From: a virus
Taxonomy: Duplodnaviria; Caudoviricetes
Virus record (IMG/VR): IMGVR_UViG_3300043084_000165
Coordinates: 1-64,000 of that record
DNA length: 64,000 bases
Reading direction: 5' to 3' (one strand)
Position numbers and translations under genes: made by a program. Every line of letters starts with the position of its first letter. The stretch's first letter is position 1. The notes under the pieces were generated by a model. It had not been told where the DNA came from. It ran no database searches and saw only the letters and a list, made by a program, of their open reading frames with translations. Positions 1,021 to 54,968 of the stretch are shown piece by piece.

Positions 1021-1050
1021 ATAAATAACAAAGGGACCTCCTAAATTTAG
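1021..1050 (-). promoter_or_regulatory. phage promoter motif CTAAAT-N13-TTGTTAT
   Basis: One of 8 copies with identical spacing upstream of minus-strand genes. Confidence 0.75.
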
Positions 1051-1067
1051 AAGATCCCCCTTGATTT

Positions 1068-1400
1068 TTAGCCGAATATTTTCTTATATATGTTCACGTC
1101 AGACCCAACCGGGACCCTGATGAACACATTATAATCTATTCCGTGCATGTTAACCACTCCCAGGTATGCACATTCGTTGAGCGAGATAGTCACATCATCA
1201 CCGATGTCATACATATATACCTCTACTGGTTGGTTGGGTGGTCCTGGTTCCGAGTCACGTGCAGATGGTATGTAATATAGGTTTGCATGGTTGCAGAATC
1301 TGGCTTGTGAACCAGCTACTGACAAAATCATAGACCCCGCGGGTAGTTGGATGGTCTGTTCCCTGCGCACAGGTAGGAACTCAACATGTAGCTTTCTCAT
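1068..1400 (-). CDS. hypothetical protein
   Basis: 110-aa ORF translationally coupled to the ligase stop. Confidence 0.7.
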   Translation of the reverse strand: MRKLHVEFLPVRREQTIQLPAGSMILSVAGSQARFCNHANLYYIPSARDSEPGPPNQPVEVYMYDIGDDVTISLNECAYLGVVNMHGIDYNVFIRVPVGSDVNIYKKIFG

Positions 1401-2749
1401 ACGTTACGTTCTCCTTCATATACATACTTGAGTGTTGGGAATCGCAGCGACCAGGCTCCCGTTTTGGAGTCCTGAGATTCGGAGAAATATTGGATGGTAA
1501 CGGTCTTGCCAACGATCTCTTCAGGATGTTCAATCCAGCGTTCGCGCTGTGCACGGGTCAGACCGGAACCAACACGCACTTCGTTACCCTTGTGCTCAAT
1601 AGTCAGCGCACTCACGCCATGAATAATCTCGCTGCCGCGTTCAGAGTTATAAGTCAGATCACCCTCAATGATGCCAGTAACAACATACTCGTCGTCCTGC
1701 ATCGGCTTGATTTTCAAGAGGTTATTAGTGCGCTTACCTTCATATGGCACATCCTTGCGCACCATTATACCCTCCCAGCAGCCTTCTTCGCGACGTCTCA
1801 GCCATTCGTCCAGGTCTGCCTGGTTGCGGATGGGGCCTTGTTCAATGACATCAATGACCTCACCATCATATATGCGAGAGCCGCGGAGGAGCAGTGCTGC
1901 ACGTTCACAAAAAGTAGCAGAGCGTTCACGACCCCAGAACTGATCCTCAGTCACAATATCAAACACCTTATATCGCGGACGTTCGATGGTATAGTCTTTG
2001 CGGCGCGCCACTGACATGAGTTCATAGAAGTCTTCAGAACCATCGTCCTTGAGCACGCACATCTCACCGTCCAGCACCCACTGACCACTTTCCAGGATTC
2101 CATTGCAGAACTCCAGCACATCCTCACGAGCGCGATCAAGTGTAGTAAATTCCTTGCCCTGACGCGAGACGAAGCGTACGGTTTGTTTATCCAGGTCTAC
2201 ATGAGCATGGCAACGCATACCGTCCAGCTTGTGTGAAGCATACCAGGTACCGTCCAGGATGTCTACATTCTTGACCTTCTCAAGTACATTGGCTAGGCAA
2301 CATGGGTATTTTTCAGTCACGCCCGAGTCGTTGGAGAATGTATTGCCTGCACCGATACGCAAGTTGCCGTCCAGGATGCGCGCCAGCCACACCTGATCTG
2401 CATAGCGGTAACGACCGATAGCCTCCTCGACTGCATATACTGCGTTCTTGCCAGTGATGGTGCGTGAAGCGAGCGCGTCCAGCAGGCTATGAAATTTGCC
2501 GTAGTCTTTATCAATGGTAAGCGCATCGTGATGACCGCAGTCAAGAACCTCATACTTCTTGACAAAGTACTTACGACCGCCATAAGTGTCTGCCAGGATC
2601 TGCTCGATCACCGGGTTCATGTGGTTTTTGAGGAACTCCTCCTTTTGGAGCTTTCCCGAGGTCATACTCACCAATCCAAACACATCTGCAATGGTCCCTT
2701 CATCGGTGAACATTGCTGGTCGATTCTTTATTTCTGTAGATGTTGCCAT
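1397..2749 (-). CDS. lig: ATP-dependent DNA ligase
   Basis: Motif I KLDG, III VLDGE, IIIa VFDI, IV EGIMVR, V LLKIK; OB domain with VGSG and SLRFP. Confidence 0.95.
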   Translation of the reverse strand: MATSTEIKNRPAMFTDEGTIADVFGLVSMTSGKLQKEEFLKNHMNPVIEQILADTYGGRKYFVKKYEVLDCGHHDALTIDKDYGKFHSLLDALASRTITGKNAVYAVEEAIGRYRYADQVWLARILDGNLRIGAGNTFSNDSGVTEKYPCCLANVLEKVKNVDILDGTWYASHKLDGMRCHAHVDLDKQTVRFVSRQGKEFTTLDRAREDVLEFCNGILESGQWVLDGEMCVLKDDGSEDFYELMSVARRKDYTIERPRYKVFDIVTEDQFWGRERSATFCERAALLLRGSRIYDGEVIDVIEQGPIRNQADLDEWLRRREEGCWEGIMVRKDVPYEGKRTNNLLKIKPMQDDEYVVTGIIEGDLTYNSERGSEIIHGVSALTIEHKGNEVRVGSGLTRAQRERWIEHPEEIVGKTVTIQYFSESQDSKTGAWSLRFPTLKYVYEGERNV

Positions 2750-2753
2750 ATTG

Positions 2754-3041
2754 TTATGCTTTTTCGTAAATATCTGATAATACTATGTTCTCAGGACCGC
2801 CTGCGTAGTAGTAAGCTTCGATCACGTTCTTGGCAGCGAGTTCTGCTCCTGTGAACGCATCATAGACGGAGTCAATGGTAAACACCCCATCGTTGAATGT
2901 TCCCTCATAAACCAGTGCGCTGTACTCAGCTGACATGTGTGTCAGGCTTTTTGCCAGCGACTCAGTGGGGCAGCCTGTGAATTCAAATGCTTCGCTATCT
3001 CTGTTGTAGCGCGCAGTGATGGCAATTTTTCTTCCTTCCAT
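2754..3041 (-). CDS. hypothetical protein
   Basis: 95-aa ORF, first gene after the hairpin-array leader. Confidence 0.7.
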   Translation of the reverse strand: MEGRKIAITARYNRDSEAFEFTGCPTESLAKSLTHMSAEYSALVYEGTFNDGVFTIDSVYDAFTGAELAAKNVIEAYYYAGGPENIVLSDIYEKA

Positions 3042-3057
3042 ATTGTTTATTGTTTTT

Positions 3058-3150
3058 GAAGATATATTGAGCAGAGCTCAACTAGATTCGAGTGTGCTCG
3101 AAGATATATTGGTTACCCAACTGGCTTCTGAGCTTCGCTCCGAAGATATA
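3058..3150. repeat. tandem ~42-bp hairpin units delimited by GAAGATATA
   Basis: GAAGATATA at 3058, 3100 and 3142; 3058-3092 matches 48801-48835 at 34/35 bp. Confidence 0.85.
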
Positions 3151-3194
3151 TAACAAAATCCCGCACAAAATTTAGTCATTCTGTGCGGGATTTT
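3142..3194 (-). promoter_or_regulatory. phage promoter motif embedded in a hairpin/terminator
   Basis: CTAAAT in the loop of the AAAATCCCGCACA/TGTGCGGGATTTT stem. Confidence 0.8.
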
Positions 3195-3202
3195 GATAAA
3201 AA

Positions 3203-3649
3203 TTAGATGTCATAGTTGTGCACATTTCGTATAGGATTCCATACTCCGATTACACGACCAATCAGCGTATGTGACAGATAAGTTTCGTTTCCATCAAATA
3301 TCTCAGGCATGGATCCGCCTGCAGCAGCGATGCACTTCACAATACGATACTGGTCGTCCTTTTCAAATAGTCCAAACTGGTTCTTGTCATAAATACCGTG
3401 CATGGTGTCTACCAGCAACACATCACCACGTTTCCACTTTTCACCGTCCTGAGCGGCTCGCGCAAGGATAATGTCATGCCTGCGTACACCCTCAATGGGA
3501 CCCAGGTGCCAAAGCTCATGTTCACATCCCTGGAAATAGTCTGTGGTTCCTGCAATCACGCATTTATATGTGTTCAGATGGTGCCGAACAACCATATACA
3601 CTGATGCGGTCACGCATGCAAAGCATAAAAGTATTAAAAAATTCAGCAT
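3203..3649 (-). CDS. hypothetical membrane-anchored protein
   Basis: 148 aa with an N-terminal hydrophobic helix. Confidence 0.7.
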   Translation of the reverse strand: MLNFLILLCFACVTASVYMVVRHHLNTYKCVIAGTTDYFQGCEHELWHLGPIEGVRRHDIILARAAQDGEKWKRGDVLLVDTMHGIYDKNQFGLFEKDDQYRIVKCIAAAGGSMPEIFDGNETYLSHTLIGRVIGVWNPIRNVHNYDI

Positions 3650-9210: not shown

Positions 9211-9254
9211 AGATAACAAACCCAGCGCAGATATTTAGCGTTCTGCGCTGGGTT
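9211..9254 (-). promoter_or_regulatory. phage promoter motif embedded in a hairpin
   Basis: AACCCAGCGCAGA/TCTGCGCTGGGTT stem around ATTTAG. Confidence 0.78.
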
Positions 9255-12004: not shown

Positions 12005-13807
12005 TTATTCTTCTTCAGAATTTTTCTTTTTCTTTTTCTTTTTGCGAGCAATGTGCGCTTTGATGGCGAGTTTCTCATCTTCTGCAAGATTGGCAATCAT
12101 AGATTCAAGAGACTCATTTGACATATCATACGAATCATCACCACCCGCGAGGTGTAAGTCATCAAGCTCCTCTTGTTTGTATTTTTCATTCAGAGCCAAA
12201 TCCTGTGGCGAAAGTTTCAAGTATTTTTCTACCAGGAACTTAGATGCAAAAAACTTAACATCATTACCCTCAGCATCCATATCAACAAGAGCTTCCTTCA
12301 TCTCTGTAATGTGTTGGACACGTTTAGACATGAGCTCTATGTTCATAAGTTCCTCAAACACATTGTAGGACTTAAACTGTAGCGATACCGATTCAAGAAT
12401 CTCCTTCTGCTCCAGCAGCTCAGGATGCATCACAGCAAGCTGAAGCTGGAGCGGCTTGATCATCACTTGCGCAAAGATGTTTCGCATGCGCGTTACAAAA
12501 CGGGCAAAGTCTATCTCCACACGAGCCACTGATGTAGCATCCGAACCAAACCAGGTCTCACCTGATTCCTGATCAAAGCGTGACAGCGGAATCTTAGAGA
12601 TCTTATAAAGCTGGTTCTTGAAGTACTTGAGCTGATCATTATCTGCCAGGTCAGGACCTTCGCCGCCCAGCGTTTCGATCTGAGGCGATCCCGAATCATT
12701 CTCTGGCAACCAGTACTCTTTGTTGAATGGTAGGTTTGTTTGGCCATTGATAGAAAGCTCACCAGTATCCGCCTGGAACTTAATATCTTCTTTATATTGA
12801 TTCATGGCCATGTTCAGCGTTTGCATACCAGTCGCTCTGTTCATACCTTTCACAGGAATGGTGAAGCGCATTTTATAAGATGCATTGGTGATGGTCCAAA
12901 TCAGCTGGGCTTGCTCAATGATACGATATATATTGAACGGGCGAATCAGACGTTCGAGATATGACTGACGAGTGATGGCATTGGTCTCCTGATATGCTAT
13001 ATATATCACCTGTGAGTCCAGTAGCTTACGCTCTTTGCCCGACATTCCTTTGAACTGCACCCAGTACCATTTGTTATTATCAAACTTTTTGGTAAGTGTG
13101 GCTGCGTCAATGGGCACCAGGCCAATGATGCGCTTAGGTTTCTCCAGTGAGTCCCATACAATCTCCCAAGCTAATTCACCCTCGATCAGCCAACGCTTAT
13201 AATCATCCCAGGCACGGTACTTCCAGTTCAACATCTTATAGAAAGTTCTGAATGATCGCGAAAGGTCGTCCTTGAGCTGTTTGCGAACTTTGGGCTTGAG
13301 GTCCTGCAGCTCTTGAATCTCTATGAATGGCTCACAGAAGTAGGTGTAGTCCTCATCATATACAATAGACTCATTAGTCATAGTATCCAGGATGTCTTCA
13401 AGCTCAGGCTGACAGGCCAGGTTGCGAAGCGCTTCGCGTTTCTGTGGAAATGTCTTGCTGAAAAAGTCCTGGTCCTTGTTAGACTTAACCTTCCAGTTGC
13501 TCGCTGCCATGGTGAACAGATCCTGGTTGGTCAGCTGAAATTCTTTCGGAAGCAAAGACTTATCTGCAGGGATGGCGCGCATATTATCAATTACCTGGTC
13601 CTCATAGCGCATACCAAAGCGAGACATCTCTGAAAAGAACTTTGCAATAGTTCGTTTGGTCTTAGGCTTGCCTGGGGAGTTTGAGTAGTGGGGTCTGAAG
13701 TTGGTAGTCTCTTTCATGCCTGGAATGGCCGAGGGGGACATCTCATCTATACGGCGACCCTGCGCATCATAATCAAAAGTATTTGGTTGGTATGTTTCTG
13801 TTACCAT
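12005..13807 (-). CDS. portal protein (T4 gp20-like)
   Basis: gp20-like segments: PELEDILD.MTNESIV, WLIEGE, SYLERLIRPFN, EYWLP...IETLGG, YF...LYK...IP.SRF, EIDFARFV.RMR. Confidence 0.88.
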   Translation of the reverse strand: MVTETYQPNTFDYDAQGRRIDEMSPSAIPGMKETTNFRPHYSNSPGKPKTKRTIAKFFSEMSRFGMRYEDQVIDNMRAIPADKSLLPKEFQLTNQDLFTMAASNWKVKSNKDQDFFSKTFPQKREALRNLACQPELEDILDTMTNESIVYDEDYTYFCEPFIEIQELQDLKPKVRKQLKDDLSRSFRTFYKMLNWKYRAWDDYKRWLIEGELAWEIVWDSLEKPKRIIGLVPIDAATLTKKFDNNKWYWVQFKGMSGKERKLLDSQVIYIAYQETNAITRQSYLERLIRPFNIYRIIEQAQLIWTITNASYKMRFTIPVKGMNRATGMQTLNMAMNQYKEDIKFQADTGELSINGQTNLPFNKEYWLPENDSGSPQIETLGGEGPDLADNDQLKYFKNQLYKISKIPLSRFDQESGETWFGSDATSVARVEIDFARFVTRMRNIFAQVMIKPLQLQLAVMHPELLEQKEILESVSLQFKSYNVFEELMNIELMSKRVQHITEMKEALVDMDAEGNDVKFFASKFLVEKYLKLSPQDLALNEKYKQEELDDLHLAGGDDSYDMSNESLESMIANLAEDEKLAIKAHIARKKKKKKKNSEEE

Positions 13808-16861: not shown

Positions 16862-18232
16862 TCAGGGTTTGTATTTTAGATAGCAATCGCTCACAGAAAC
16901 TAGGTTTTCAATCAAGTCACCATCAGTCCACGTGCCTGGCGCTGTCGGCACCATGTGGCGCATAAATTTCTTATATATATCAGAATGAGCACGCAGTGAC
17001 GAATCAATAGTGTTAAAACCGCCACTAAGTGCTTGATTTAGAATGCCTTTCTCCTTGTCACTCAACTGCCCAACAGCATATTTGTATGACTTAACAAAAG
17101 CGTCACGTGACGACCACTTAGTGGTGTCTTCAAGCAATATATATACATCGTCACATGCGAACGTCTCAACAATCTGTTCTTTAGTGAGACCATGCATGTT
17201 GCGCATCAGTGACTCAGTATAGATGTTGAGGATATCCAACAGCATGTCGGTGAGCTGTTTGTTGCTCTTGATGAACTTGATGATCTTCTTAATCACCGAG
17301 TTCTGAATGTTACCCTCAGACATGCCATAGGATTTTGCAATGTCCTTAGACTTCTCCTTCGTGCGGCCGTTGATACCGAAGAATCTATAAAAGATATCAG
17401 TATCGCGTTGGGTAAAGGTTTTGTCTAGTACATTATATAGTTTCTTCCACTTAGAGTCATCGTCACGGTCACGATCTTCAGCACCTATATAACTCAGATG
17501 ATCCAGGTCATCCAAGTTGTCCAGTGAAGCTGCATCCAGTGACGGACCTTCTCCATCGCGTGACTTTTTAGTAGCATACCAGTTAGTGCCCGACAAGGTG
17601 TGTGAATACTCATCCATGTCGTTGAGGATCTGCTGACGGATTCTATAACCTGCATAGGTCTTAAATGAAACAACCTTGCCACCGTTCTCATCCGGTTCAC
17701 GCTTCCAATCGTTCATAGCATTAGCCAACCCCAACATTCCCGCAGAAATGAGTGATGACTTATCCAGTGACGACTTATCCTTAAACTGATTAACAATGTG
17801 CAGCACCAGTGGGGTATAAAGCTTTGATACTGCGTTGCGACCTGTCTGTGACTCCAGGTCAATAGTTGCATCATCCAGCGCCAGCTGCCCCTTCTCAATC
17901 AATTCACGTTCAGAAGCTGAAAGATACTGCGGCATGACCTTGTAGTTCTGCTTGATAGTCTTCATCAAGTTCCACAAGTCCTCCAAGTCACCCTGCGGGA
18001 TGTTATGCTTTCCAGACAGATCTTTAAGCTTTGATTTATTGGCTGTTCTGATCTCATCCAGCACCTCACGCGAAGTGATATCATACTTTGAAGTGATATA
18101 TATAGCTTTCTGCACATCAACCGGAAGGGACTTCTTGAGCTTGTTGACATACTGCGTGATGTCAGTCTGTAATAGATTGACAGCATCTCGATCACCACGG
18201 CCTTCGCTAATTATCTGACTAAATTTCTTCAT
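16862..18232 (-). CDS. sigma-70-family-like factor with N- and C-terminal extensions
   Basis: Region 2 (LISAGMLGLANA...SFKTYAGYRIRQQI) and region 4 HTH (RDTDIFYRFFGI...KDIAKSYGMSEGNI); N-terminus MKKFSQIISEG. Confidence 0.8.
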   Translation of the reverse strand: MKKFSQIISEGRGDRDAVNLLQTDITQYVNKLKKSLPVDVQKAIYITSKYDITSREVLDEIRTANKSKLKDLSGKHNIPQGDLEDLWNLMKTIKQNYKVMPQYLSASERELIEKGQLALDDATIDLESQTGRNAVSKLYTPLVLHIVNQFKDKSSLDKSSLISAGMLGLANAMNDWKREPDENGGKVVSFKTYAGYRIRQQILNDMDEYSHTLSGTNWYATKKSRDGEGPSLDAASLDNLDDLDHLSYIGAEDRDRDDDSKWKKLYNVLDKTFTQRDTDIFYRFFGINGRTKEKSKDIAKSYGMSEGNIQNSVIKKIIKFIKSNKQLTDMLLDILNIYTESLMRNMHGLTKEQIVETFACDDVYILLEDTTKWSSRDAFVKSYKYAVGQLSDKEKGILNQALSGGFNTIDSSLRAHSDIYKKFMRHMVPTAPGTWTDGDLIENLVSVSDCYLKYKP

Positions 18233-20262: not shown

Positions 20263-22053
20263 ATGAATATCCCTAACCTGGAAGAGCTTGACTCGCCAAA
20301 AAAGAAAGGAACTCTCTATATAAAGAAACATTATCCTGAATTTCATCAATACATTTTGGATACTTATCCACACATCAACAAGTTCAATGCTGGTATATAC
20401 TTATATTACCGCCACATGGATCATCCCAAGTGTCCAGTTTGTGGAGGTTATGTTCCATTCTTAGATGAGACCCGTGGCTTCCAACGATGCTGCTCAAGCA
20501 AATGTGCTAATTCTGACCCTGAGTTTCGTAAGCGGGTCACAGAAACATGTCTTCGCAAATACGGCACAAAGACCCCGACTGAGAATCCGGAGATCAAAAA
20601 GAAAGCTATGAGCACATATATAGCAAATAATGGAGGCATGGGTAACGCGTCACAGTCGGTTGCGGCCAAGCAGAAAACTACCATGATGGAGCGATATGGT
20701 GCTGAGCATGCACTGCAGTGTGGCCAATTTATCGATAAAGCAAAGACGGTGTTGACTGAACGCTATGGTGGTATGGGTACGGGGTCTAAAGATATAAGAT
20801 CGCGCATTGAAAAAACCAATGTAGAACGTTATGGTAGTAGGAGTTCGTTTGGTTCAAAAGAAGTCCGCGCCAAATCAATCAAAACCAATATTGAAAAGTA
20901 TGGGTGTGAAATTGCATCTCAAAACCCAGAGATAGCAGCCAAGGTATCCAAGGCCAAATCAAAGTCATTCATTGATTTACACTCTGATATAATCAAGATT
21001 GATAAAATTGGTGAAAATGTAATGTACACATGCGAATGTCCCCATCCAGGTTGTGACCGATGTGAGGAAAAAACTTATATAATCAACGCGCGTCGTTATT
21101 GTAACAGAAAACTTGAAGGGACTGAGATGTGTACTCACATTCTGCCAGTGATTCAGGGACGAATAAAAAATACTTATCCTGAGATATTTGTACGAGGTGT
21201 GTTAAGTGAAATCATGCCTGAGATTCAGTTATCATTCAACAATCGCACCCTGATAGAACCCCAAGAGGTGGACATCTATGACAGGGCTCATGGATTAGCA
21301 TTTGAATGTAATGGTTGTTATTGGCACTCAAAAAAGAGTCCATCTTATCACAAGCAAAAATTCTTACAATGTCAGCAAAAAGGCGTGCAGCTGATGACCA
21401 TATGGGAAGATTGGATAAAGACCAAACCTGAAATTGTACGATCGATCATTCGCGCAAAGTATCACCATTTCGACAGGACTATATATGGTCGCAAATGTGA
21501 ACTTAAACCGGTTCAGTCCAAAGATGCAGCTGTATTTTTAGAAGCAAATCATATACAGGGTCAGACACGGGCTAGCGTGCATTATGGTTTATATAACAAC
21601 AACGAGCTTGTTGCACTTGCATCCTTCTCAAAGATGCGTGGGTGTATGGGATCACAGACCTCACGTGAAGGCCAGTGGGAACTAGTACGTTTTTGTAATA
21701 CCCTGAACACGCAGGTTATTGGCGGTGCTGATAAGTTACTTAAGCATTTTATCAAAGACTATAACCCATCATCTATAGTATCGTTTAGCTCAAATGACAT
21801 TAGTGATGGTTCTCTTTATAAACGATTGGGGTTTGAAAAGGGATCTATGAATTCATCCTACTGGTATATAGGGCACAATTATCGCAGATATCACAGATCC
21901 AACTTCACCCGAGCAGCTATCATAAAACTAGGCCTTGCGCCTGACCGCGAGCAATGGACCGAGACAGAGGCTATGATGGAACACGGATTTGTTCAAATAT
22001 ATGACTCAGGACAAACCAAGTGGGTACTACAAATAAAAAGGGAAGACCAGTAA
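20263..22053 (+). CDS. free-standing homing-type endonuclease (Zn finger, RYG repeats, Vsr/PD-(D/E)xK nuclease, GNAT-like C-terminus), paralog 1
   Basis: CPVCG, repeated T..ERYG, EVDIY...AFECNGCYWH, FLEANHIQG, ELVRFC, YKRLGF, IYDSG..KW. Confidence 0.75.
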   Translation: MNIPNLEELDSPKKKGTLYIKKHYPEFHQYILDTYPHINKFNAGIYLYYRHMDHPKCPVCGGYVPFLDETRGFQRCCSSKCANSDPEFRKRVTETCLRKYGTKTPTENPEIKKKAMSTYIANNGGMGNASQSVAAKQKTTMMERYGAEHALQCGQFIDKAKTVLTERYGGMGTGSKDIRSRIEKTNVERYGSRSSFGSKEVRAKSIKTNIEKYGCEIASQNPEIAAKVSKAKSKSFIDLHSDIIKIDKIGENVMYTCECPHPGCDRCEEKTYIINARRYCNRKLEGTEMCTHILPVIQGRIKNTYPEIFVRGVLSEIMPEIQLSFNNRTLIEPQEVDIYDRAHGLAFECNGCYWHSKKSPSYHKQKFLQCQQKGVQLMTIWEDWIKTKPEIVRSIIRAKYHHFDRTIYGRKCELKPVQSKDAAVFLEANHIQGQTRASVHYGLYNNNELVALASFSKMRGCMGSQTSREGQWELVRFCNTLNTQVIGGADKLLKHFIKDYNPSSIVSFSSNDISDGSLYKRLGFEKGSMNSSYWYIGHNYRRYHRSNFTRAAIIKLGLAPDREQWTETEAMMEHGFVQIYDSGQTKWVLQIKREDQ

Positions 22054-25667: not shown

Positions 25668-27395
25668 TCAATTATAATTGCGAATCCATTTTGTTGTGCC
25701 TGTATCATATATTCTAAAATATGGCTTTGTGTCCATAACTTCATACTCAGTACCGTCACAGCTTCCATATTTTTTTACAATGGCTTGTTTAGTAAAACTA
25801 CTTCTGTGATAACGCACAAATGTATTATGTTCTATGTACCAATATGATGACTGAATGCCTGGGACTTTTTCAAAACCCAAAACTTTATACATATTTCCGT
25901 CACTAATGTCATTTGAACTGAATGATACTATAGTTGTGGGTGAATAGTCTTTTACAAATCTCTTTAATAATTTACTCGCTCCCCCGATGATATGAACGTT
26001 CATTAACGAACAAAATCTCGTCAATTCCCACTCCCCCGTTGATGATCGATTTACAATACCCTTTCGTTGACCAAAACTCATAACAGAAACTAGTATATCC
26101 TGTTTATATAACCCAATATATACTGCAGATCTACATGGACCTTGTATGTGATTTTGCGCCAGAAACTTATTTGCAACCCGGCTTGTTATATATTTTACCT
26201 GACATTTTCGCGCATATATAGAGGGGGTGCTGTGGGATAATTTTGTCACCAACATAGATTTGATCAGCTCAGGATTATGTCTATACCAATCCTCCCATAT
26301 TGTGATCAATCGAATCCCATTTTCCAAGCATCTTTTATATTTATCCACATGATACTGTCGCGGTTTTGAATATTTGAAATGGAAATTAGTTTGATGCCAA
26401 TAGCACCCATTACATTCGATGGCTATATTCAATGATGGGATGTATATATCAAGTTCTTGTCCTTGCAATATTGTTCTATCATTTGTTTGATAGGATATTT
26501 CAAGATCATCCAAAATGTCTCTTATAAAAAGTTCCATAGAAGAATATGGAGTGCTTTGAATGGGGAGGAGATTTGTGCACAATTCTCCTCCGGTTTTTAG
26601 ACGACTTCTATATATTTGAGTTTGTGTTATATATTGTTTTTGTTGACATTTGTTGCAATTTGGATGAGGACACTTACATATCCAATCACCATCGGGGGTA
26701 TAACCTATTAAAAACTCGTGTTCATCTACAACATGTGATTGAAATTTGAGTTTATTGTTCATCTTAAATTTATCTGTGGCAAATATATTAGTTTTGCCAT
26801 AATGGTCTAAAAATGTTTTATTTTTTCTTTCCTGGATGATTGTTAATTTAGACACATTATCTACACCATAACGTTCAAGACATGTATTGCGTGCAGCTTC
26901 TCTGTTGTTATAATTTACATCTCCATAACGTTCAAGACACGTTTGTTTGCCCTTTTGTCTTATGGATTTTACCTTAAGTGTGCTATCTACGCCATAACGC
27001 CCAAGACATGTTTGTTTGGATTTTTCAGGGTTGTTATAATTTACATCCCCATAACGTTTCAACTTAGTCTGCTTTACCTTCCGTATTATCTCTTCATTGG
27101 TGTAATTAGAGCGTCTTGTTTGTAATGCTTTATCATGTGTGGCTAATGAGCTACAACGAACTGAACAGTATTCGCGAAATCCATTGGTGAAATCTATGAA
27201 TTTGGGTTCAGCCCCACACAGCGGGCATGGTTTAGGCCCACCTATTAAATCTCTATATAATTTTTCCGAGAATTTTGATCCAGTTTGATATTTTTGTTCA
27301 AGGTACTCAAAATACTCAGGAAATGCCTTCTGAATATGCAATCTCCCAAGTCTATTTACATTTTCTCTGAGATAATCTATATTTGGTTTGTCCAT
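25668..27395 (-). CDS. free-standing homing-type endonuclease, paralog 2
   Basis: Same architecture as paralog 1 (CPLCG, TCLERYG repeats, ELDIYIP...IECNGCYWH, NHIQG, ELTRFC); noticeably AT-rich. Confidence 0.75.
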   Translation of the reverse strand: MDKPNIDYLRENVNRLGRLHIQKAFPEYFEYLEQKYQTGSKFSEKLYRDLIGGPKPCPLCGAEPKFIDFTNGFREYCSVRCSSLATHDKALQTRRSNYTNEEIIRKVKQTKLKRYGDVNYNNPEKSKQTCLGRYGVDSTLKVKSIRQKGKQTCLERYGDVNYNNREAARNTCLERYGVDNVSKLTIIQERKNKTFLDHYGKTNIFATDKFKMNNKLKFQSHVVDEHEFLIGYTPDGDWICKCPHPNCNKCQQKQYITQTQIYRSRLKTGGELCTNLLPIQSTPYSSMELFIRDILDDLEISYQTNDRTILQGQELDIYIPSLNIAIECNGCYWHQTNFHFKYSKPRQYHVDKYKRCLENGIRLITIWEDWYRHNPELIKSMLVTKLSHSTPSIYARKCQVKYITSRVANKFLAQNHIQGPCRSAVYIGLYKQDILVSVMSFGQRKGIVNRSSTGEWELTRFCSLMNVHIIGGASKLLKRFVKDYSPTTIVSFSSNDISDGNMYKVLGFEKVPGIQSSYWYIEHNTFVRYHRSSFTKQAIVKKYGSCDGTEYEVMDTKPYFRIYDTGTTKWIRNYN

Positions 27396-40811: not shown

Positions 40812-40845
40812 GAAGATATATAACAAAGACGCCTCAAAAATTTAG
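40812..40845 (-). promoter_or_regulatory. phage promoter motif
   Basis: GAAGATATATAACAA...AATTTAG on the + strand. Confidence 0.78.
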
Positions 40846-42522: not shown

Positions 42523-42553
42523 AAAAGCTCGAGGTCATCCTCGAGCTTTTTTT
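42523..42553. terminator. bidirectional intrinsic terminator
   Basis: AAAAGCTCGAGG-TCAT-CCTCGAGCTTTTTTT. Confidence 0.88.
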
Positions 42554-44121
42554 ATCCACTTTGTAGTGCCTGCATCATATATCCTAAAGAATCCCAGTCC
42601 ATCCATAACCTCGCGCTCAGTCCATTGTGACTTGTCTGTTGATGGCGCCAAGCCCTTTCTGATGATGGAGTCTTTGGTAAACGTTGACCTATGATACCTG
42701 CGGAACCGCCTATCTACATACCAATAAGAGTTTGAAATGGTACCATCTGTGCTGAATCCAAGCTTCTTATATAAATTACCATTTGATATATCATTACATG
42801 AAAATGATGTAACGATTCCCGGGTTGTAGTGCTTCTCAAAATGCGCTAACAACTTACCCGCGCCTCCGACTATGGTTGTGTTGAGTTTGCCACAGAATCT
42901 TATAAGCTCCCACTCACTATCTGTTGAGTTCTTACCGCCCGACAACTTTGAACGTTTATTGAAAGCCATTACTGCAACTAGTCCATTACAAAATAACCCC
43001 AGGTTCACAGCACTCTGACAACGCCCCTGGATGTGGTTTGCATCAAGAAACTCATTACAAGTTCGTCTGTCGATCTCACGAATCTCGCATTTGCGTGCAT
43101 AAACGCGTTGCTCACAGACCCCCAACTTCGAAAGTATCATAGAGCACACGATCTCGGGCTTGTTAACAATCCAATCCTCCCATATCTGTATCAGTTGGAT
43201 TCCATGATCCCCACACAACCTGAACTTATCCATGTGATAGTTATAAGGTTTCTCGCGGTCTGAATGCCAATACACTCCGTTACACTCAATGGCAACCTTC
43301 TTGTCAGGAATATATATATCAAGCTGCTGTGGTGGGATGATATCGTATGAGCCATCGATATGTTTCACACCATGCTCGTCCAGGAGTTGACGGATAAATA
43401 ATTCAATAGATGAGCAATGATCACGCGATTGTTTAGGCATCAACCTAGTGCACGGGTTAGTACCATCATTGATTCTATTTATATATAAGCGCGGCTCTAT
43501 GCAAAATTGTCGTTCGTCACAGCAGGACCCATCGCATTGTACTATAAAATTGCCGTCCTCAACTCCAATGATTTCTGGGTGTCCCTGTAAGAATTTGCCC
43601 CGCGCATATGTACTGGCTCCGAACTTCTGCTCACAGGCCTGCGCCACCCGATTCTTTATCTCATCTGATGATGATGCACAATCGGTCCCGTAACGCTCTT
43701 GACATGTTTCTTTATACTTTTGCACAAGCTCCTTTGAGGCAAACCCAGTGCCACCATAGCGCTCTTTATTAGTTTCTGCAGCCTTGTGTTGGAATTCAGG
43801 CACCCTGGATACATGATCTCCATAACGCTTCACCATAGTTAAACGAGCCTTAGTCTTGCTGGACTCTGCCGCACCTGCACACTTTCGTCCGCAGAATCGT
43901 TGATAGCCACGGGTGAGGTCCAGGTAAGTGGTTGGCGCGCCGCATGTCTCACAAACATGTTCCGGGCATTTGTGATAGTAGTTATATAGTTTTTCCGTGA
44001 ACTTGGTGCCAGGATAAGTGCGCACCAGCTGATAAAACTCAGGCCAGTGTGTGCTTATGAACTTCTCAGTTGTGCGGTTGCGCGGACGTTCTAATATATA
44101 TTCAAGTGTAGGCTGTTGCAT
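42535..44121 (-). CDS. free-standing homing-type endonuclease, paralog 3
   Basis: CETCG, ERYG repeats, QLDIYIP...IECNGVYWH, NHIQG, ELIRFC, IYDAG..KW. Confidence 0.75.
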   Translation of the reverse strand: MQQPTLEYILERPRNRTTEKFISTHWPEFYQLVRTYPGTKFTEKLYNYYHKCPEHVCETCGAPTTYLDLTRGYQRFCGRKCAGAAESSKTKARLTMVKRYGDHVSRVPEFQHKAAETNKERYGGTGFASKELVQKYKETCQERYGTDCASSSDEIKNRVAQACEQKFGASTYARGKFLQGHPEIIGVEDGNFIVQCDGSCCDERQFCIEPRLYINRINDGTNPCTRLMPKQSRDHCSSIELFIRQLLDEHGVKHIDGSYDIIPPQQLDIYIPDKKVAIECNGVYWHSDREKPYNYHMDKFRLCGDHGIQLIQIWEDWIVNKPEIVCSMILSKLGVCEQRVYARKCEIREIDRRTCNEFLDANHIQGRCQSAVNLGLFCNGLVAVMAFNKRSKLSGGKNSTDSEWELIRFCGKLNTTIVGGAGKLLAHFEKHYNPGIVTSFSCNDISNGNLYKKLGFSTDGTISNSYWYVDRRFRRYHRSTFTKDSIIRKGLAPSTDKSQWTEREVMDGLGFFRIYDAGTTKWIKKARG

Positions 44122-44855: not shown

Positions 44856-45587
44856 TCACTTTTCGAGGAGACTTGCCATTGCTTCGCATATGTCTTCGTT
44901 TGATTTAATATAATCCAGTACCTTCTTGATGCGCTGAGAGATACGACCCGAGGTTACGTTCAGTTCTGCTGCGAGCTCAGTTACTTGCTTCTCCGGCACT
45001 CCACATACTCCGAAGAATGAGTAGAAGCAGTATGCATCAGTGGCGTTGCAATGAGTATCAACCTCGGTCTTCAACAGTTCCATCGGGTCACCGTCTTCAA
45101 ACTTCGCGCTCTCATACACACCGTAGCGCATCTCGCGATTCATATTCTCGTTGTCACCTGCGGGGTTCATCACTGCTGAGATGCTCACCGTGGTGAATGT
45201 GGTAGCGCCAATGCCAGGAGCCGCATTTTCGCATACCTCAGCGTCAGCAGCTACATCAGCCTGAGTCTTCTTGATCTGCTCCTGTGTATAGCTGGTCAGC
45301 TTCACTGTGTGGAGCTCTGTGCAAGAGCAGTTGCGGATGTTGTTCAGCATTGCAAACGCAGCGAACTGAGTGAAGTTCATCTGTGAGCGTTCAGGATCGT
45401 ATGTATTCATCGCGATAGTCAGACCTTCGTAAGCCATGGACTTGAGTGTGTACCAATCGGTCTTGAGACGACGGTGCCACTGCGAAACAATCTTGTTCAC
45501 CAGCGGCTCGAATTGACGAGCGATCTGATTGCGAACTTCTGCAGGTGCTGCAGCAAATGACTGACGGAGATTTGTAATTGCTTCCAT
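44856..45587 (-). CDS. sigma-70-family-like factor (compact, regions 2+4)
   Basis: AYEGL..A...YDPER...FT.FA (region 2); ELAAELNVTSGRISQRIKK (region 4 HTH). Confidence 0.85.
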   Translation of the reverse strand: MEAITNLRQSFAAAPAEVRNQIARQFEPLVNKIVSQWHRRLKTDWYTLKSMAYEGLTIAMNTYDPERSQMNFTQFAAFAMLNNIRNCSCTELHTVKLTSYTQEQIKKTQADVAADAEVCENAAPGIGATTFTTVSISAVMNPAGDNENMNREMRYGVYESAKFEDGDPMELLKTEVDTHCNATDAYCFYSFFGVCGVPEKQVTELAAELNVTSGRISQRIKKVLDYIKSNEDICEAMASLLEK

Positions 45588-45624: not shown

Positions 45625-45674
45625 GAAGATATATAACAAGAGCCCCTCAGAAATTTAGTCTGAGAGGCTCTTTT
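45625..45674 (-). promoter_or_regulatory. phage promoter motif embedded in a hairpin, upstream of the compact sigma gene
   Basis: AAGAGCC.CTCAGA/TCTGAG.GGCTCTT stem with an AATTTAG loop. Confidence 0.8.
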
Positions 45675-47939: not shown

Positions 47940-48779
47940 TTATCTTTTTTCAATGTTTATACAAATCCATTTACCCGCTATTTTGCGTAACCTCATACGA
48001 ACCAGGCTGTCCATGAGGATGATGTGCTCACAATCAATTTTGTCCAAACCCATATCATACACCAGACCCTCTGCATCATACAAATCCTCTGCCTTTGGCC
48101 AGTAGCGCTGATATTTTTTATCATTGTTATATAGCGCGCGGACGTGCTTGAGGTTTGATACTTTTTTGGGACCACAGACCTGGGGTTTGACGTGGCAACC
48201 AAAGTAACTCTCAATGTCATATAGGTCAGACATCAAGAACAAAATCTCTGCTGCCTTACCACGGATGTCTATGTGTGATGGGATATCATGGAACATCAGA
48301 CTTTCACAATCAAATTCACAATTATACAGCCCTCTGCGCTCGGGATCCCCAACAAACAGCCCCGTAAACACAATGTTGCGGGCTCTTATATAAGTATCCT
48401 CAAGACGGAATGTGTTGGTGTAGTTGGTGACTTTTGAGTTATAGCTCAGGTTAGGACCCCAGGGACAATCAATGCGTTTTGGAAGGGTGTGGCCATATCT
48501 AAACAGCAAAGTGTGTGCCTGCAGTTCAGTAATACCATAACGTTCCCAGTCGATCTCGTTATATATAACTGTCCGTTTCTCAGATTCGCACCTTAGTACA
48601 CCTCCATTCAGGGACCAATCATCCAGGATCAGTCGCATACCCGAGCGTTCGCAACGATTGTCACCGTCTTTAAGAACTCCCACACAAGAGTGACCCGGAC
48701 CTTTGGGGTCGTATTCTTTGAAGAACTGTTGCGAAGCAACATCATCCCATACATCAATATTTTGAGTTAATATGCTCAT
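47940..48779 (-). CDS. hypothetical protein
   Basis: 279 aa; first gene after the second hairpin-array leader. Confidence 0.72.
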   Translation of the reverse strand: MSILTQNIDVWDDVASQQFFKEYDPKGPGHSCVGVLKDGDNRCERSGMRLILDDWSLNGGVLRCESEKRTVIYNEIDWERYGITELQAHTLLFRYGHTLPKRIDCPWGPNLSYNSKVTNYTNTFRLEDTYIRARNIVFTGLFVGDPERRGLYNCEFDCESLMFHDIPSHIDIRGKAAEILFLMSDLYDIESYFGCHVKPQVCGPKKVSNLKHVRALYNNDKKYQRYWPKAEDLYDAEGLVYDMGLDKIDCEHIILMDSLVRMRLRKIAGKWICINIEKR

Positions 48780-48800: not shown

Positions 48801-48890
48801 GAAGATATATTGAGCGGAGCTCAACTAGATTCGAGCTATACTCGAAGATATAGTTCTATAGATTTGAGAGCTGAGCTCTCAGAGATATAT
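48801..48890. repeat. second tandem hairpin-unit array
   Basis: GAAGATATA at 48801 and 48844, AGAGATATA at 48881; hairpins between the units. Confidence 0.82.
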
Positions 48891-48929
48891 AACAAAAGGA
48901 GCTCCAATATTTAATTGAAACTCCTTTTT
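48883..48929 (-). promoter_or_regulatory. phage promoter motif (TTAAAT variant) in an imperfect hairpin
   Basis: Same spacing; AAAAGGAG/CTCCTTTT stem. Confidence 0.7.
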
Positions 48930-50979: not shown

Positions 50980-52404
50980 TTAACGGTCTGGGTGACGTCG
51001 TCGGTCGTCCCAAAACATTGTGATTCCGAGTTTGTTCGTGTACTTCTGCACAGACTCCTTTGAGATGTCTTGCATAAGTGGTGCGTAACAGTAGCAGTAT
51101 GTATTGAGTTGCTTGATATCCTTGTTGTTATCACATAGGTTGTGAATAGCCTTGTACATGTTCCAGTACTCAGAGTCGGGATCAGAGGTGAGCTTGTCTT
51201 TGTCTTTATCCATGAGTAAGTCAAGAACAGTAAATACTACACGATGCTTGTGCCATTTCTTATCATCCTCCTGAGCGTCTTTATATGCTTGCTCCAACCC
51301 CTCAAGATGCTTTTTGACATAACTTTCATAACCCTCCACTTTAGATTTGGTGGTAGAAGAGTCCTGATCAAGCAACTTAAAGGATCCACCGAAGCCTTTG
51401 GTTGGTTCATAATCATGCACATCATGTTCCTCGTTGAACTCTGCGAGCTTCTGTTCGCGTTCCGAGCGAGACTCGATCTTCAGGATGTCCTCAAGCTTTT
51501 CAAATTCCTTCTTGTCATCTGCGCTGAGACAACCCTTTAGCAAGCGTCTATAACGCTCAGAGAACTCAGGAACCTGCAAAATACGCATGTGCATCAGACC
51601 CAGGTGATTGTTATATTCTTTCTTATACTTTGCAATCATCTTCTTGTCAAACTCTGGGTCGTTGACTATATGTAACCATGACTGTGCACCTTCGATATCT
51701 TTATCATACAACATCTGTGCCCATTCCTGAGTGTAGGGGGTTTGCATAACCACAACCACATGCTTATAACCCATCTTTTTAACATAGGTTAAAAAGCGGG
51801 CCGCACAAACCCAGGTGTACTTTTTTGCGATGTCTGGTTTTTCAGCGAAGTGGTCCCATTCGTCGTAACGATATGGATAGTACTGGGAGCACTCAAGCGG
51901 TATGATACCGGGGTTGGAAATGCAGGCGCAGTCTGTAAACGCTCTATACCTGTCCAGGAAAAGATTCTTGCGGATCTTTGAGTCAACATATGGTTTTGAG
52001 TTAGAACACTCAAACACGGTCAACACATCACGCAGACGTTTATTTTCTGATAGACAGAACTCAGTCAGCGTCCAATAGTGCGGGTGCATGAGCTGGTATT
52101 CGGTCTCACCAATCAGTCCATCCAGGTCCCACTTATCACGGGGAATGACCTCTTCTGAGGCTTTGAGAATGGGTACGCAAACGTCTTTTGCATATGCGAT
52201 GATACCAGCACGTTTGTGGTCGCCGGTGATGTTATATTTACGTGTCAACTTTTCAAATCGTGACTTGAAATGTTTCGCCCACAGATACTTGTGCATGCCA
52301 ATCTTGTAATAAATGGCATTGTCAGAGGTGGGAGAGTCTGACGATTCATTTATTGAGTCTATGGAACTCGTGTGGTTCCATAGGTATTCCGAAATGTCGT
52401 ACAT
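50980..52404 (-). CDS. ArcS-like (DUF5591) domain protein
   Basis: FECSNSKPY.DS.IR and ISNPGIIPLE....YP..YD resemble archaeosine synthase PCS..KPY..S and TSP.G.VP.E....YP...YD; lies between folE2 and queE. Confidence 0.6.
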   Translation of the reverse strand: MYDISEYLWNHTSSIDSINESSDSPTSDNAIYYKIGMHKYLWAKHFKSRFEKLTRKYNITGDHKRAGIIAYAKDVCVPILKASEEVIPRDKWDLDGLIGETEYQLMHPHYWTLTEFCLSENKRLRDVLTVFECSNSKPYVDSKIRKNLFLDRYRAFTDCACISNPGIIPLECSQYYPYRYDEWDHFAEKPDIAKKYTWVCAARFLTYVKKMGYKHVVVVMQTPYTQEWAQMLYDKDIEGAQSWLHIVNDPEFDKKMIAKYKKEYNNHLGLMHMRILQVPEFSERYRRLLKGCLSADDKKEFEKLEDILKIESRSEREQKLAEFNEEHDVHDYEPTKGFGGSFKLLDQDSSTTKSKVEGYESYVKKHLEGLEQAYKDAQEDDKKWHKHRVVFTVLDLLMDKDKDKLTSDPDSEYWNMYKAIHNLCDNNKDIKQLNTYCYCYAPLMQDISKESVQKYTNKLGITMFWDDRRRHPDR

Positions 52405-52478
52405 TGTTATAGATATATATACAATAATAGAGCGAAGCTCCTGACGAACTTCGCTCTGTACTATAGATCTGATGCGGG

Positions 52479-54903: not shown

Positions 54904-54934
54904 AATGTTCTTGTATGCGCTTTAGTGCGCTCTC

Positions 54935-54968
54935 GAAGATATATAACAAAGGTAGACTATATATTTAG
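54935..54968 (-). promoter_or_regulatory. phage promoter motif
   Basis: GAAGATATATAACAAA...ATTTAG. Confidence 0.78.

What the first reader, a model, noticed from the sequence alone, without database searches (positions are those of the whole stretch)
3058..3150. 42-bp-periodic array of paired mini-hairpins in a transcript leader
Seen: GAAGATATA recurs at 3058, 3100 and 3142, exactly 42 bp apart. Each unit holds two hairpins whose sequences change while pairing is kept (TTGAGC-AGA-GCTCAA vs TTGG-TTAC-CCAA; TTCGAG-TGTG-CTCGAA vs GAGC-TTC-GCTC). On the minus strand the last reads GAGC-GAA-GCTC, containing the very stable GCGAAGC mini-hairpin. The array lies between the promoter and the first ORF. 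Inference: processed small-RNA units or decoys (by analogy to pseudo-ToxI antitoxin mimics or RNA anti-CRISPRs), or in-phase DNA binding sites about four helical turns apart.
Basis: partly seen in the sequence, partly recalled or inferred. Interest (0 to 1): 0.75.

Follow-up and report, generated by a model that had tools for sequence, protein, structure and literature searches.

The report
Tandem hairpin cassettes in phage leader
The 42-bp repeat is real: it is a tandem stack of small two-hairpin cassettes, each ending in a copy of the promoter's core, sitting in the 5' leader of a DNA-ligase operon of an uncultured T4-like jumbo phage; close relatives gain, lose and swap these cassettes, but what they do is not shown.

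Summary
Observation confirmed. The 10-mer stands at 3058, 3100 and 3142, exactly 42 bp apart. It occurs 8 times in the 91.7-kb virus record, always on one strand, against about 0.3 expected. The genes here run on the minus strand, where the repeat reads ATATATCTTC.

That 10-mer is the downstream end of a phage-specific promoter: a CTAAAT box, a 17-bp spacer, a TG-extended -10, then a pyrimidine-purine start. The promoter overlaps a terminator-like hairpin.

Each 42-bp period is one cassette: hairpin 1, a conserved linker, hairpin 2 and a new copy of the promoter core. The same cassettes recur at 48801-48890 (also noted earlier by this scan), at 70.3 kb, and in four related IMG/VR contigs. Nothing like them was found elsewhere.

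Orthologous leaders carry 0, 1 or 2 cassettes. One pair of contigs with 99.8% identical flanks has the cassette replaced outright. Core spacing ranges from 22 to 45 bp, so helical phasing fails. No ToxN gene, Rfam family or CRISPR-like repeat was found.

Best reading: a recombination-portable 5'-leader cassette attached to a PeSL-like terminator-promoter. It probably acts in cis on the transcript, but that function is inferred. No expression data could be obtained.

The parts
3154..3195 (-). Terminator-like hairpin after the 148-aa ORF (3649..3203). The CTAAAT box (3175..3170) lies in its loop, and its T-rich tail is the start of the promoter's -10 region.
   Evidence: The terminator scan reports 18 pairs, 7 of them G-C, with a T-rich tail. 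RNA folding energy is -27.1 kcal/mol. The same layout recurs at 1050, 9238, 45658 and 48914 and in relatives, with different stems and G.U pairs only on the sense strand.
3142..3175 (-). Promoter-like motif: a -35-like CTAAAT (3175..3170), a 17-bp spacer, a TG-extended -10 (TTGTTATATA, 3156..3147) and the discriminator TCTTC (3146..3142). Core copy 1 is 3151..3142.
   Evidence: There are 8-10 co-oriented intergenic copies in the record. The motif is also present in a divergent intergenic region at 40845. The -35 and extended -10 parts are conserved in more distant metagenomic relatives, where TCTTC is replaced. Promoter function is inferred, not measured.
3141..3141 (-). Inferred transcription start: a purine following the conserved pyrimidine at 3142.
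   Evidence: The start is inferred from geometry, 6-7 nt after the -10 hexamer. A pyrimidine-purine step is conserved at this point in all promoter copies and in distant relatives. There is no experimental support.
3100..3141 (-). Cassette 1: hairpin 1 (stem GAGC/GCTC, loop GAA, 3140..3130, extended by 3145..3142 pairing with 3128..3125), linker 3129..3120, hairpin 2 (stem TTGG/CCAA, loop GTAA, 3120..3109) and core copy 2 (3109..3100).
   Evidence: Sequence and folds are. The same linker class occurs in a cassette of contig G004.
3058..3099 (-). Cassette 2: hairpin 1 (stem TTCGAG/CTCGAA, loop CACA, 3102..3087), linker 3089..3081, hairpin 2 (stem TTGAGC/GCTCAA, loop TCT, 3081..3067) and core copy 3 (3067..3058).
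   Evidence: Sequence and folds are. This cassette is letter-identical over 52 nt to a cassette in contig G003 (L133:1762-1813) that lies ahead of an unrelated gene. It is the top-scoring class in the covariance-model search.
3042..3057 (-). A-rich, unstructured 16-nt leader with no Shine-Dalgarno sequence, running up to ATG 3041.
   Evidence: The distance from the last core to the ATG (16-52 nt) matches the core-to-ATG distance of cassette-free promoters (19-39 nt).
1397..3041 (-). Downstream genes: a 95-aa ORF of no known family (3041..2754) and an ATP-dependent DNA ligase (2749..1397).
   Evidence: PHROG 114, E = 5.8e-75. Pfam ligase domains are present in its homologues.
48801..48914 (-). 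Paralogous array: promoter variant (TTAAAT at 48914..48909), cores at 48890..48881, 48853..48844 and 48810..48801 (spacing 37 and 43), two cassettes, and ATG at 48779.

Best explanation
The array is a tandem stack of two copies of a small, portable 5'-leader cassette. It is attached to a phage-specific composite terminator-promoter, and it belongs to an uncultured T4-like jumbo phage whose nearest cultured relatives are the PAU and PTm1 phages.

Shown:
- The repeated 10-mer is the -10-distal/discriminator core of a promoter-like motif used 8-10 times in this genome.
- Each cassette consists of hairpin 1 abutting a core, a conserved 8-10 nt linker, hairpin 2, and a fresh copy of the core. The 42-bp period is therefore simply the cassette length.
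- Cassettes occur only downstream of this promoter class.
- Their number differs (0, 1 or 2) between orthologous leaders of close relatives. They are replaced outright between nearly identical flanks.
- The last core sits at the normal promoter-to-ATG distance.

Inferred, origin: cassettes are inserted, lost and exchanged by copy-choice or short-homology recombination. The core at each end supplies the homology. This is the same logic proposed for PeSL regulatory cassettes of T4-type phages.

Inferred, function: transcription starts at the purine at 3141, so the cassettes form the 5' UTR. They also lie in any read-through RNA from the upstream gene. There they fold into two short stem-loops separated by single-stranded AU-rich core copies. 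They act in cis on that transcript, by 5'-end protection or insulation or by modulating elongation or processing. Cassette number would serve as an evolvable expression dial. They are not trans-acting antitoxin-like or CRISPR-like RNAs, and they are not helically phased operator sites.
For: Strand and position: all exact cores lie on one strand and upstream of co-oriented ATGs.

Promoter:
- The catalogue shows an invariant 17-bp spacer, a TG-extended -10 and a conserved pyrimidine-purine step.
- The same -35/extended -10 recurs in distant relatives that lack the TCTTC core and lack cassettes.

Distribution: a pattern scan and a covariance model find cassettes only in this record and four IMG/VR contigs, always after this promoter.

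Pairing:
- 97% of cells pair, against 19-46% in slid controls.
- Three pairs show changes on both sides.
- RNAalifold predicts the same two helices independently.
- The only non-Watson-Crick stem pairs are G.U on the sense strand.

Motif enrichment: GAGC-N2-4-GCTC occurs 11 times against 2.9 expected, and 6 of the 11 lie within 70 nt after a promoter.

Turnover:
- Orthologous leaders carry 0 versus 1 or 1 versus 2 cassettes.
- In one locus G002 and G004 are 99.8% identical over the 400 nt upstream and 95% identical in the CDS, yet the leaders are 64 and 99 nt.
- A 52-nt cassette is identical at non-orthologous loci of two phages.
- Insertions are bounded exactly by core duplicates.
- The last-core-to-ATG distance equals that of cassette-free promoters.

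Precedent: PeSL composite terminator-promoters have the stem-loop between -35 and -10 or over the -10. They mediate indels between close T4-type phages (PMC2839356, PMC4122927).

Lineage: relatives carry a T4-type portal. The window's portal is nearest to those of PAU and PTm1.
Against: No transcript data exist.

The sample is thin. There are five contigs, two of them nearly identical, so the compensatory changes represent few independent events.

The hairpins are weak, about -5 kcal/mol. GAGCACACUC alone does not fold.

Hairpin 1 owes its stability to outer pairs that use the last 3 nt of the core. In first cassettes those bases lie upstream of the inferred start. Yet that outer pair still covaries: C-G six times, T-A six times, T.G once and one mismatch. 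This fits read-through RNA, single-stranded DNA, or purely mutational quasipalindrome correction (PMC7202029) better than promoter-started RNA.

The hairpin 2 stem is invariant in 8 of 10 cassettes while its loop is free. That could mean sequence-specific recognition or very recent common origin, rather than a structural constraint.

Four of ten terminal cores have decayed, so the core copies may carry no function of their own.
Confidence: 0.5

Rival explanations
1. The cassettes are a neutral or selfish by-product. They are hairpin-prone quasipalindromes that spread and expand by template switching at the shared promoter core. They are tolerated in leaders but have no function. The apparent covariation is mutational, because palindrome correction copies one arm from the other.
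For: Turnover is faster than point mutation, shown by 99.8% identical flanks around different cassettes. An identical cassette stands at unrelated loci. Four of ten terminal cores have decayed. Cassettes are absent from orthologous leaders of close relatives with no visible consequence. The outer-pair covariation includes a base that is not expected in the RNA. The quasipalindrome template-switch mechanism is established (PMC7202029).
Against: The linker and the hairpin 2 stem are conserved across cassette classes and genomes while the loops vary. Cassettes are confined to one promoter class and one orientation. Arrays persist at three loci of one genome.
Confidence: 0.22
2. The array controls transcription elongation. 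Each core copy is a -10-like element on the non-template strand. It recaptures the sigma factor on the elongating polymerase, causing a sigma-dependent pause. Hairpin 2, which ends 9-10 nt upstream, would stabilise that pause. The result would be a delay, attenuation or a loading window for an antiterminator.
For: The core copies are identical to the promoter's own -10/discriminator segment. Sigma-dependent pausing at -10-like elements in transcribed regions, including by sigma loaded in trans, is established in E. coli and lambdoid phages (PMC4604602, PMC9191641). The phage encodes two sigma-like proteins. The genome is full of terminator-promoter composites, which an antitermination system would have to pass.
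Against: The core copies lack the TG extension and the -12 T. Some begin CTATAT, or have decayed to ATAGAT or ATATATAAAT. No pausing data exist. Identity to the promoter can be explained by recent duplication alone.
Confidence: 0.12
3. The leader is cut at the AU-rich cores, releasing discrete ~42-nt double-hairpin RNAs. These would act in trans as decoys or regulators. Alternatively the cuts mature the mRNA to a standard short leader.
For: Single-stranded AU-rich cores flanked by hairpins resemble typical endonuclease targets with protected ends. The last core lies at the standard leader distance from the ATG.
Against: No ToxN-like gene was found, though the control was silent. No Rfam family, ToxI or CRISPR-DR match reaches threshold. 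The cassette interiors differ from one another, unlike ToxI repeats. Copy number of 0-2 at orthologous loci argues against an essential trans-acting RNA. No RNA data exist.
Confidence: 0.07
4. The inverted repeats are double-stranded operator palindromes for a dimeric phage regulator that sits over the start site. Or the cores are phased protein-binding sites.
For: Hairpin 2 is a perfect 6-3-6 palindrome with an invariant stem and a free centre in 8 of 10 cassettes. The hairpin 1 palindrome spans -3 to +13 of the inferred start, including untranscribed bases.
Against: Core spacing of 22-45 bp is not helically phased. The distance between the GAG and CTC half-sites is 4 or 5 nt and stem length varies. 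Some half-sites change on both sides, such as GAAC/GTTC and TTGG/CCAA. That fits base pairing better than a fixed protein-DNA code. G.T pairs are tolerated only on the sense strand. No regulator gene is linked to the three arrays, and the downstream genes are unrelated.
Confidence: 0.07

Closest known systems
PeSL (promoter-early stem-loop) composite terminator-promoter cassettes of T4-type phages (Arbiol et al. 2010, PMC2839356; Comeau et al. 2014, PMC4122927)
   Same: Both are conserved intergenic motifs that combine a promoter with an overlapping stem-loop. Both are repeated through the genome of a T4-like phage. Both sit at sites of insertion, deletion or replacement between close relatives, with recombination through the conserved motif proposed as the mechanism.
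   Different: PeSL promoters are sigma-70-like, whereas here the -35 box is CTAAAT. PeSLs shuffle whole ORFs. Here the shuffled unit is a 22-45 nt non-coding mini-cassette inside the leader, stacked in tandem and bounded by copies of only the promoter core. Tandem leader arrays were not found in the parts of the two PeSL papers that I read.
Sigma-dependent promoter-proximal pause elements (lambda PR' and E. coli; PMC4604602, PMC9191641)
   Same: Both involve a copy of the -10 region on the non-template strand of the transcribed leader.
   Different: The known elements are single and lie within about 25 nt of the start. Here there are two or three copies at +43 and +85, interleaved with hairpins. 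Pausing has not been tested.
ToxI antitoxin RNA arrays (type III toxin-antitoxin systems)
   Same: Both are tandem units of about 36-42 nt placed between a promoter and a gene.
   Different: ToxI units are near-identical throughout and are followed by a ToxN endoribonuclease gene. Here only 10 nt is repeated, the interiors differ, no ToxN gene is present, and the downstream genes are a ligase operon and unrelated ORFs.
nut and put antitermination sites of lambdoid phages
   Same: Both are small hairpin elements in the leader just downstream of early promoters, in a genome rich in terminators.
   Different: There is no sequence likeness. Copy number is variable, and cassettes are absent from orthologous leaders. 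The comparison rests on my own knowledge and was not tested.

Membership tests
PeSL-type composite terminator-promoter (T4-type phages) | Conserved bipartite promoter (-35, about 17 bp, -10) repeated in intergenic regions | tested here: met
   There are 8-10 co-oriented intergenic copies with an invariant 17-bp spacer. The consensus is not sigma-70-like. Promoter activity was not measured.
PeSL-type composite terminator-promoter (T4-type phages) | Stem-loop overlapping the promoter and able to terminate upstream transcription | tested here: inconclusive
   The structure is present, with the -35 box in the loop and a T-rich tail. The terminator scan calls it, and stems covary with sense-strand G.U pairs. 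Termination itself is not testable here.
PeSL-type composite terminator-promoter (T4-type phages) | Host phage is T4-like | tested here: met
   Contigs encoding the closest ligase homologues carry Portal_T4. The window's portal matches PHROG 213 and is nearest to those of PAU and PTm1 at 35% identity. The relationship to T4 is distant.
PeSL-type composite terminator-promoter (T4-type phages) | Motif marks indels or replacements between close relatives | tested here: met
   Cassette number differs at four orthologous leaders. Flanks are up to 99.8% identical. What is shuffled is a non-coding mini-cassette, not an ORF.
ToxI-type antitoxin RNA array | Tandem, near-identical repeats of the whole ~36-nt unit | tested here: not met
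   Only the 10-11 nt core repeats. Tandem Repeats Finder reports no array.
ToxI-type antitoxin RNA array | Adjacent ToxN-family endoribonuclease gene | tested here: not met
   The flanking ORFs are a 95-aa unknown and a DNA ligase. A PF13958 search of the record found nothing, but its control genomes were also silent.
CRISPR-repeat mimic (RNA anti-CRISPR) | Unit resembles a CRISPR direct repeat of the host | tested here: inconclusive
   No CRISPR-DR family reaches threshold. The only weak hit (E = 2.2) lies outside the array. The host and its repeats are unknown.
Helically phased protein-binding sites or iterons | Constant spacing in whole helical turns across copies | tested here: not met
   Spacing is 22, 32, 33, 37, 41, 42, 43, 44 or 45 bp over 14 cassettes. 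There is no GC-skew inflection at the arrays.
Intrinsic terminator or attenuator | Stable G+C-rich stem followed by a U tract | tested here: not met
   The mini-hairpins fold at -3 to -7 kcal/mol and are followed by AUAUAUCUUC. The scan calls only the large hairpin at 3195..3154.
Sigma-dependent pause element | -10-like sequence on the non-template strand of the transcribed region, with a pause 12-17 nt downstream | not testable with these tools
   The sequence feature is present, since the cores equal the promoter's -10-distal part. Pausing needs a transcription assay.

The most novel reading that the evidence does not exclude
The cassettes form a copy-number-variable device that controls transcription elongation. 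Each promoter-core copy would recapture a phage sigma factor on the elongating polymerase, and the preceding hairpin would hold the pause. The phage could then set the dose or timing of early and middle operons by adding or dropping cassettes through recombination. It could also use the pauses to load an antiterminator. A portable, stackable sigma-pause module of this kind has not been described.
Probability: 0.12. Interest if true: 0.75.

Novelty: new variant of a known kind. Interest (0 to 1): 0.45.

Why it matters
If the cassettes act in cis, they would be a compact natural dial for gene expression. The dial would be a 42-nt module that recombination can stack or remove at any promoter of one class, which would extend the PeSL idea from shuffling genes to shuffling leader elements. 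The finding also gives a well-defined promoter, terminator and leader grammar for an uncultured clade of about 200-kb T4-like phages related to PAU and PTm1. Nothing is known about transcription in that clade, so the grammar is useful for annotation and for designing reporter tests. If the cassettes are neutral, they are still a clear case of palindrome-driven micro-evolution that mimics RNA covariation. That is a caution for scans based on covariation.

Tried and rejected
- Near and distant DNA searches of cultured phage genomes gave no match to the window or the array.
- A 15-mer promoter-core scan of IMG/VR returned mostly single chance matches and was uninformative.
- Related-locus search with the ligase protein found no close relatives.
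- A metagenome scan with hairpin 2 plus the core found nothing.
- A second metagenome scan with the promoter found more distant relatives that use the same -35/extended -10 but have no cassettes.
- The covariance model found no cassettes in 402 kb of other loci.
- Rfam gave nothing at E-value threshold on the region, and nothing at gathering threshold on the whole window.
- ToxN search: none found, but the control was silent.
- Host-type Bacteroidota promoter (TTTG ... TAnnTTTG), read by eye on the catalogue, does not fit in any register.
- The cores as independent promoters: rejected, because they lack the -35 box and the TG extension. Hairpin 2 or the linker as a -35 surrogate is 6-10 nt too close.
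- A coding reading was rejected. The 33-aa minus-strand ORF 3179..3078 and the 45-aa plus-strand ORF 3016..3153 cannot be conserved, because cassette lengths of 22-45 nt change the frame between relatives.
- Replication origin: no skew inflection, and the array is dispensable at orthologous loci.
- The long-range pairing between hairpin 1 of cassette 1 and hairpin 2 of cassette 2, seen in the minimum-energy fold of this array, is not reproduced in the second array.
- PTm1 and PAU do not use this promoter motif.
- Literature search for promoter or leader elements in the PAU/PTm1 clade found nothing relevant.

Full report
**1. The observation**

The window is the first 64 kb of a 91,703-bp IMG/VR virus record, estimated 56% complete. 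That record holds 8 exact copies of the 10-mer, all on the + strand, where composition predicts about 0.34 on both strands together.

Tandem Repeats Finder does not report the array, because only the 10-11 nt core repeats. The genes around it run on the minus strand: a 148-aa ORF (3649..3203), the intergenic region, a 95-aa ORF (3041..2754), and an ATP-dependent DNA ligase (2749..1397; PHROG 114, E = 5.8e-75). Everything below is therefore read on the minus strand, where the repeat is ATATATCTTC.

**2. The repeated 10-mer is the core of a promoter-like motif**

Printing every copy in context shows a longer motif:
- a CTAAAT box;
- a 17-bp spacer of free sequence;
- TTGTTATATA, which is a TG-extended -10;
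- TCTTC;
- a purine.

The motif occurs 8-10 times in the record. It is always intergenic, always co-oriented with the next ORF, and lies 14-39 nt from the ATG when no cassette intervenes. One copy, at 40845, sits in a divergent intergenic region. It therefore cannot be only a signal at the end of an upstream gene.

More distant relatives in metagenomes keep the CTAAAT box and the extended -10. This includes an orthologue of the gene behind the 40845 copy. These relatives replace TCTTC with other letters that still end in a pyrimidine followed by a purine. I therefore read 3175..3170 as the -35-like box and 3156..3147 as the extended -10. TCTTC would be the discriminator and the G at 3141 the start. 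This is inference from geometry and conservation, and no transcript data could be obtained.

The motif fits neither the sigma-70 consensus nor the Bacteroidota TTTG/TAnnTTTG type. The phage encodes two sigma-like proteins. PTm1 and PAU, the nearest cultured phages by portal protein, do not use the motif.

**3. The promoter overlaps a terminator-like hairpin**

At 3195..3154 an 18-pair hairpin has the CTAAAT box in its loop and the T-rich start of the -10 region as its tail. The same layout recurs at 1050, 9238, 45658 and 48914, and in relatives down to about 60% ligase identity. The stems differ in sequence, and the G.U pairs occur only on the sense strand.

This matches the PeSL composite terminator-promoter of T4-type phages. 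In PeSLs the stem-loop most often lies between the -35 and -10 boxes or over the -10 (PMC2839356, PMC4122927). The lineage is T4-like in the broad sense. Contigs of 70-218 kb that encode the closest ligases carry a T4-type portal. The window's portal is nearest to those of Sphingomonas phage PAU and Tenacibaculum phage PTm1, at about 35% identity.

**4. Anatomy of the array**

After the promoter core (3151..3142) come two cassettes:
- Cassette 1 (3141..3100): hairpin 1 is GAGC-GAA-GCTC and is extended by the core's CTTC pairing with GAAG. A 10-nt linker follows, then hairpin 2 (TTGG-GTAA-CCAA), then a second core.
- Cassette 2 (3099..3058): hairpin 1 is TTCGAG-CACA-CTCGAA, followed by the linker, hairpin 2 (TTGAGC-TCT-GCTCAA) and a third core.

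A 16-nt A-rich leader then runs to ATG 3041. The 42-bp period is therefore the cassette length.

The sense strand folds better than shuffles (z = -3.26) and better than the antisense strand (z = -2.28). Each mini-hairpin is weak, however, at about -5 kcal/mol.

**5. The cassette is a family**

Within the same record there is a second array at 48914..48801, with three cores spaced 37 and 43 nt apart. A single cassette lies at about 70.3 kb.

A specific pattern scan of IMG/VR found the cassette in four further contigs of 22-62 kb. I fetched these whole. In all five records the core is strongly strand-biased. Cassettes occur only directly after the promoter motif.

A covariance model built from nine cassettes recovered only these sites in 402 kb that included the more distant relatives. 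Cultured phages have no match, and Rfam has none.

The cassettes are mosaics of a few modules:
- several hairpin 1 variants;
- three linker classes;
- hairpin 2, which is mostly TTGAGC-N3-GCTCAA with a free loop;
- in some cassettes, hairpin 1 alone.

**6. Pairing evidence**

On the nine-cassette alignment, 97% of cells form standard pairs, against 19-46% when partners are slid. Three pairs show changes on both sides. RNAalifold predicts the same two helices without guidance. Further examples seen in the raw contexts:
- GAGC/GCTC versus GAAC/GTTC;
- TTGAGC/GCTCAA versus TTGG/CCAA, and versus TTGGGC/GCTCAA, which gives a G.U pair on the sense strand only;
- an orthologous leader hairpin with a conserved ACTAAA loop whose stem is GCGC/GCGC here and GGTGC/GCACC in relatives.

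The distance between the outer GAG and CTC is 4 or 5 nt, and stem length varies. This speaks for base pairing rather than a fixed duplex-binding code.

Caveats:
- There are only five contigs, two of them nearly identical.
- The hairpin 2 stem hardly varies.
- The outermost covarying pair of hairpin 1 (C-G six times, T-A six times, T.G once, one mismatch) uses the base just before the inferred start, even in first cassettes.

That last point fits read-through RNA, single-stranded DNA, or mutational quasipalindrome correction (PMC7202029) better than RNA started at the promoter.

**7. Turnover**

Orthologous leaders differ in cassette content:
- One gene has one cassette in G002 and none in G003 or G004.
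- A second gene has a hairpin-only cassette in G002 and none in the other two.
- A third has one cassette in G002 and two different ones in G004, although the 400 nt upstream are 99.8% identical and the CDS is 95% identical.
- A fourth has different cassette classes in G001 and G003.

Insertions are bounded exactly by duplicates of the core or of its ATATA part. The 52-nt cassette 3109..3058 is letter-identical to one in G003 that precedes an unrelated gene. Yet the ligase next to it has no relative above 66% amino-acid identity.

The distance from the last core to the ATG (16-52 nt) equals the core-to-ATG distance of cassette-free promoters. Together this indicates insertion, loss and exchange by copy-choice or short-homology recombination through the cores. 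The same principle has been proposed for PeSLs, but here it moves a non-coding mini-cassette.

**8. What it is not**

- Core spacing of 22-45 bp rules out helical phasing.
- Only 10 nt repeats, no ToxN-like gene is present (control silent), and the neighbours are a ligase operon and unrelated ORFs. The array therefore fails the defining features of ToxI arrays.
- No CRISPR-repeat family matches, although the host is unknown.
- The mini-hairpins are not called as terminators.
- There is no skew inflection at the arrays.
- Small ORFs across the array cannot be conserved, given the cassette lengths.

**9. Mechanism and odds**

I commit to the following, with a combined confidence of about 0.5. 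The array is a recombination-portable leader cassette stacked twice behind a PeSL-like terminator-promoter. It is transcribed in sense as the 5' UTR, and also in any read-through RNA. It acts in cis on that transcript, with cassette number as an evolvable dial. The architecture and the turnover are shown. The transcription start and the cis effect are inferred.

Rivals:
- a neutral, palindrome-driven by-product (0.22);
- a sigma-dependent pause or attenuation array, since the cores copy the promoter's own -10-distal segment (0.12; PMC4604602, PMC9191641);
- cleavage at the AU-rich cores, giving ~42-nt RNAs or a matured mRNA (0.07);
- duplex operator palindromes (0.07).

**10. Verdict**

The ToxI, anti-CRISPR and phased-site readings do not.

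This is a new variant of a known kind, namely the regulatory cassettes of T4-type phages. Interest is moderate. The tandem, core-bounded leader mini-cassettes were not found in the parts of the two PeSL papers that I read. The promoter grammar belongs to an unstudied jumbo-phage clade. Function remains untested, and the sample of relatives is small.

Noticed in passing
window 1031-1062, 9219-9254, 45638-45672, 48894-48927; L183:8989-9078 and 13467-13572; L185:6634-6721; L186:13292-13396: A terminator-like hairpin with the CTAAAT box in its loop, followed by TTTGTTAT(A/C)TAT, is a general intergenic grammar. It holds in this phage and in relatives down to about 60% ligase identity, so it is a PeSL-like composite in a PAU/PTm1-related clade.
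   Followed up: partly
window 54917-54934 (minus strand); orthologous sites in L128 and L134: A leader hairpin directly after the promoter at 54968 has a conserved ACTAAA loop, the same letters as the -35-like box. Its stem is GCGC/GCGC here and GGTGC/GCACC in relatives, a compensatory change. Its function is unknown.
   Followed up: partly
window 20263-22053 (+), 25668-27395 (-), 42535-44121 (-): Three paralogous ORFs of about 530-600 aa match HNH homing-endonuclease families (PHROG 3339 and 559, E down to 1e-109). This is an unusually high load in 64 kb.
   Followed up: no
window 16862-18232 (-) and 44856-45587 (-): Two sigma-factor-like ORFs match PHROG 351, and the shorter one has a weak region-4 hit in Pfam. 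The shorter one lies directly behind a cassette-free copy of the promoter at 45658.
   Followed up: partly
window 52404-52470 (minus strand): A hairpin (AGAGCGAAG ... CTTCGCTCT) is followed by TTGTATATATATCTAT and an ATG 4 nt later. This is a promoter-core-like variant without the CTAAAT box.
   Followed up: no
L129:16181-16706 (G001 36190 and 36706) and the matching sites in G002, G003 and G004: Two further copies of ATATATCTTT, 516 nt apart, are conserved in all four related contigs. They have no CTAAAT box, and one lies next to a divergent gene start. They are unexplained.
   Followed up: no
window 12005-13807 (-): The portal protein is nearest to those of Sphingomonas phage PAU and Tenacibaculum phages PTm1 and PTm5 (about 35% identity) and to portals of uncultured megaphages. 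With A-rich leaders that lack a Shine-Dalgarno sequence, this suggests a Bacteroidota host.
   Followed up: partly
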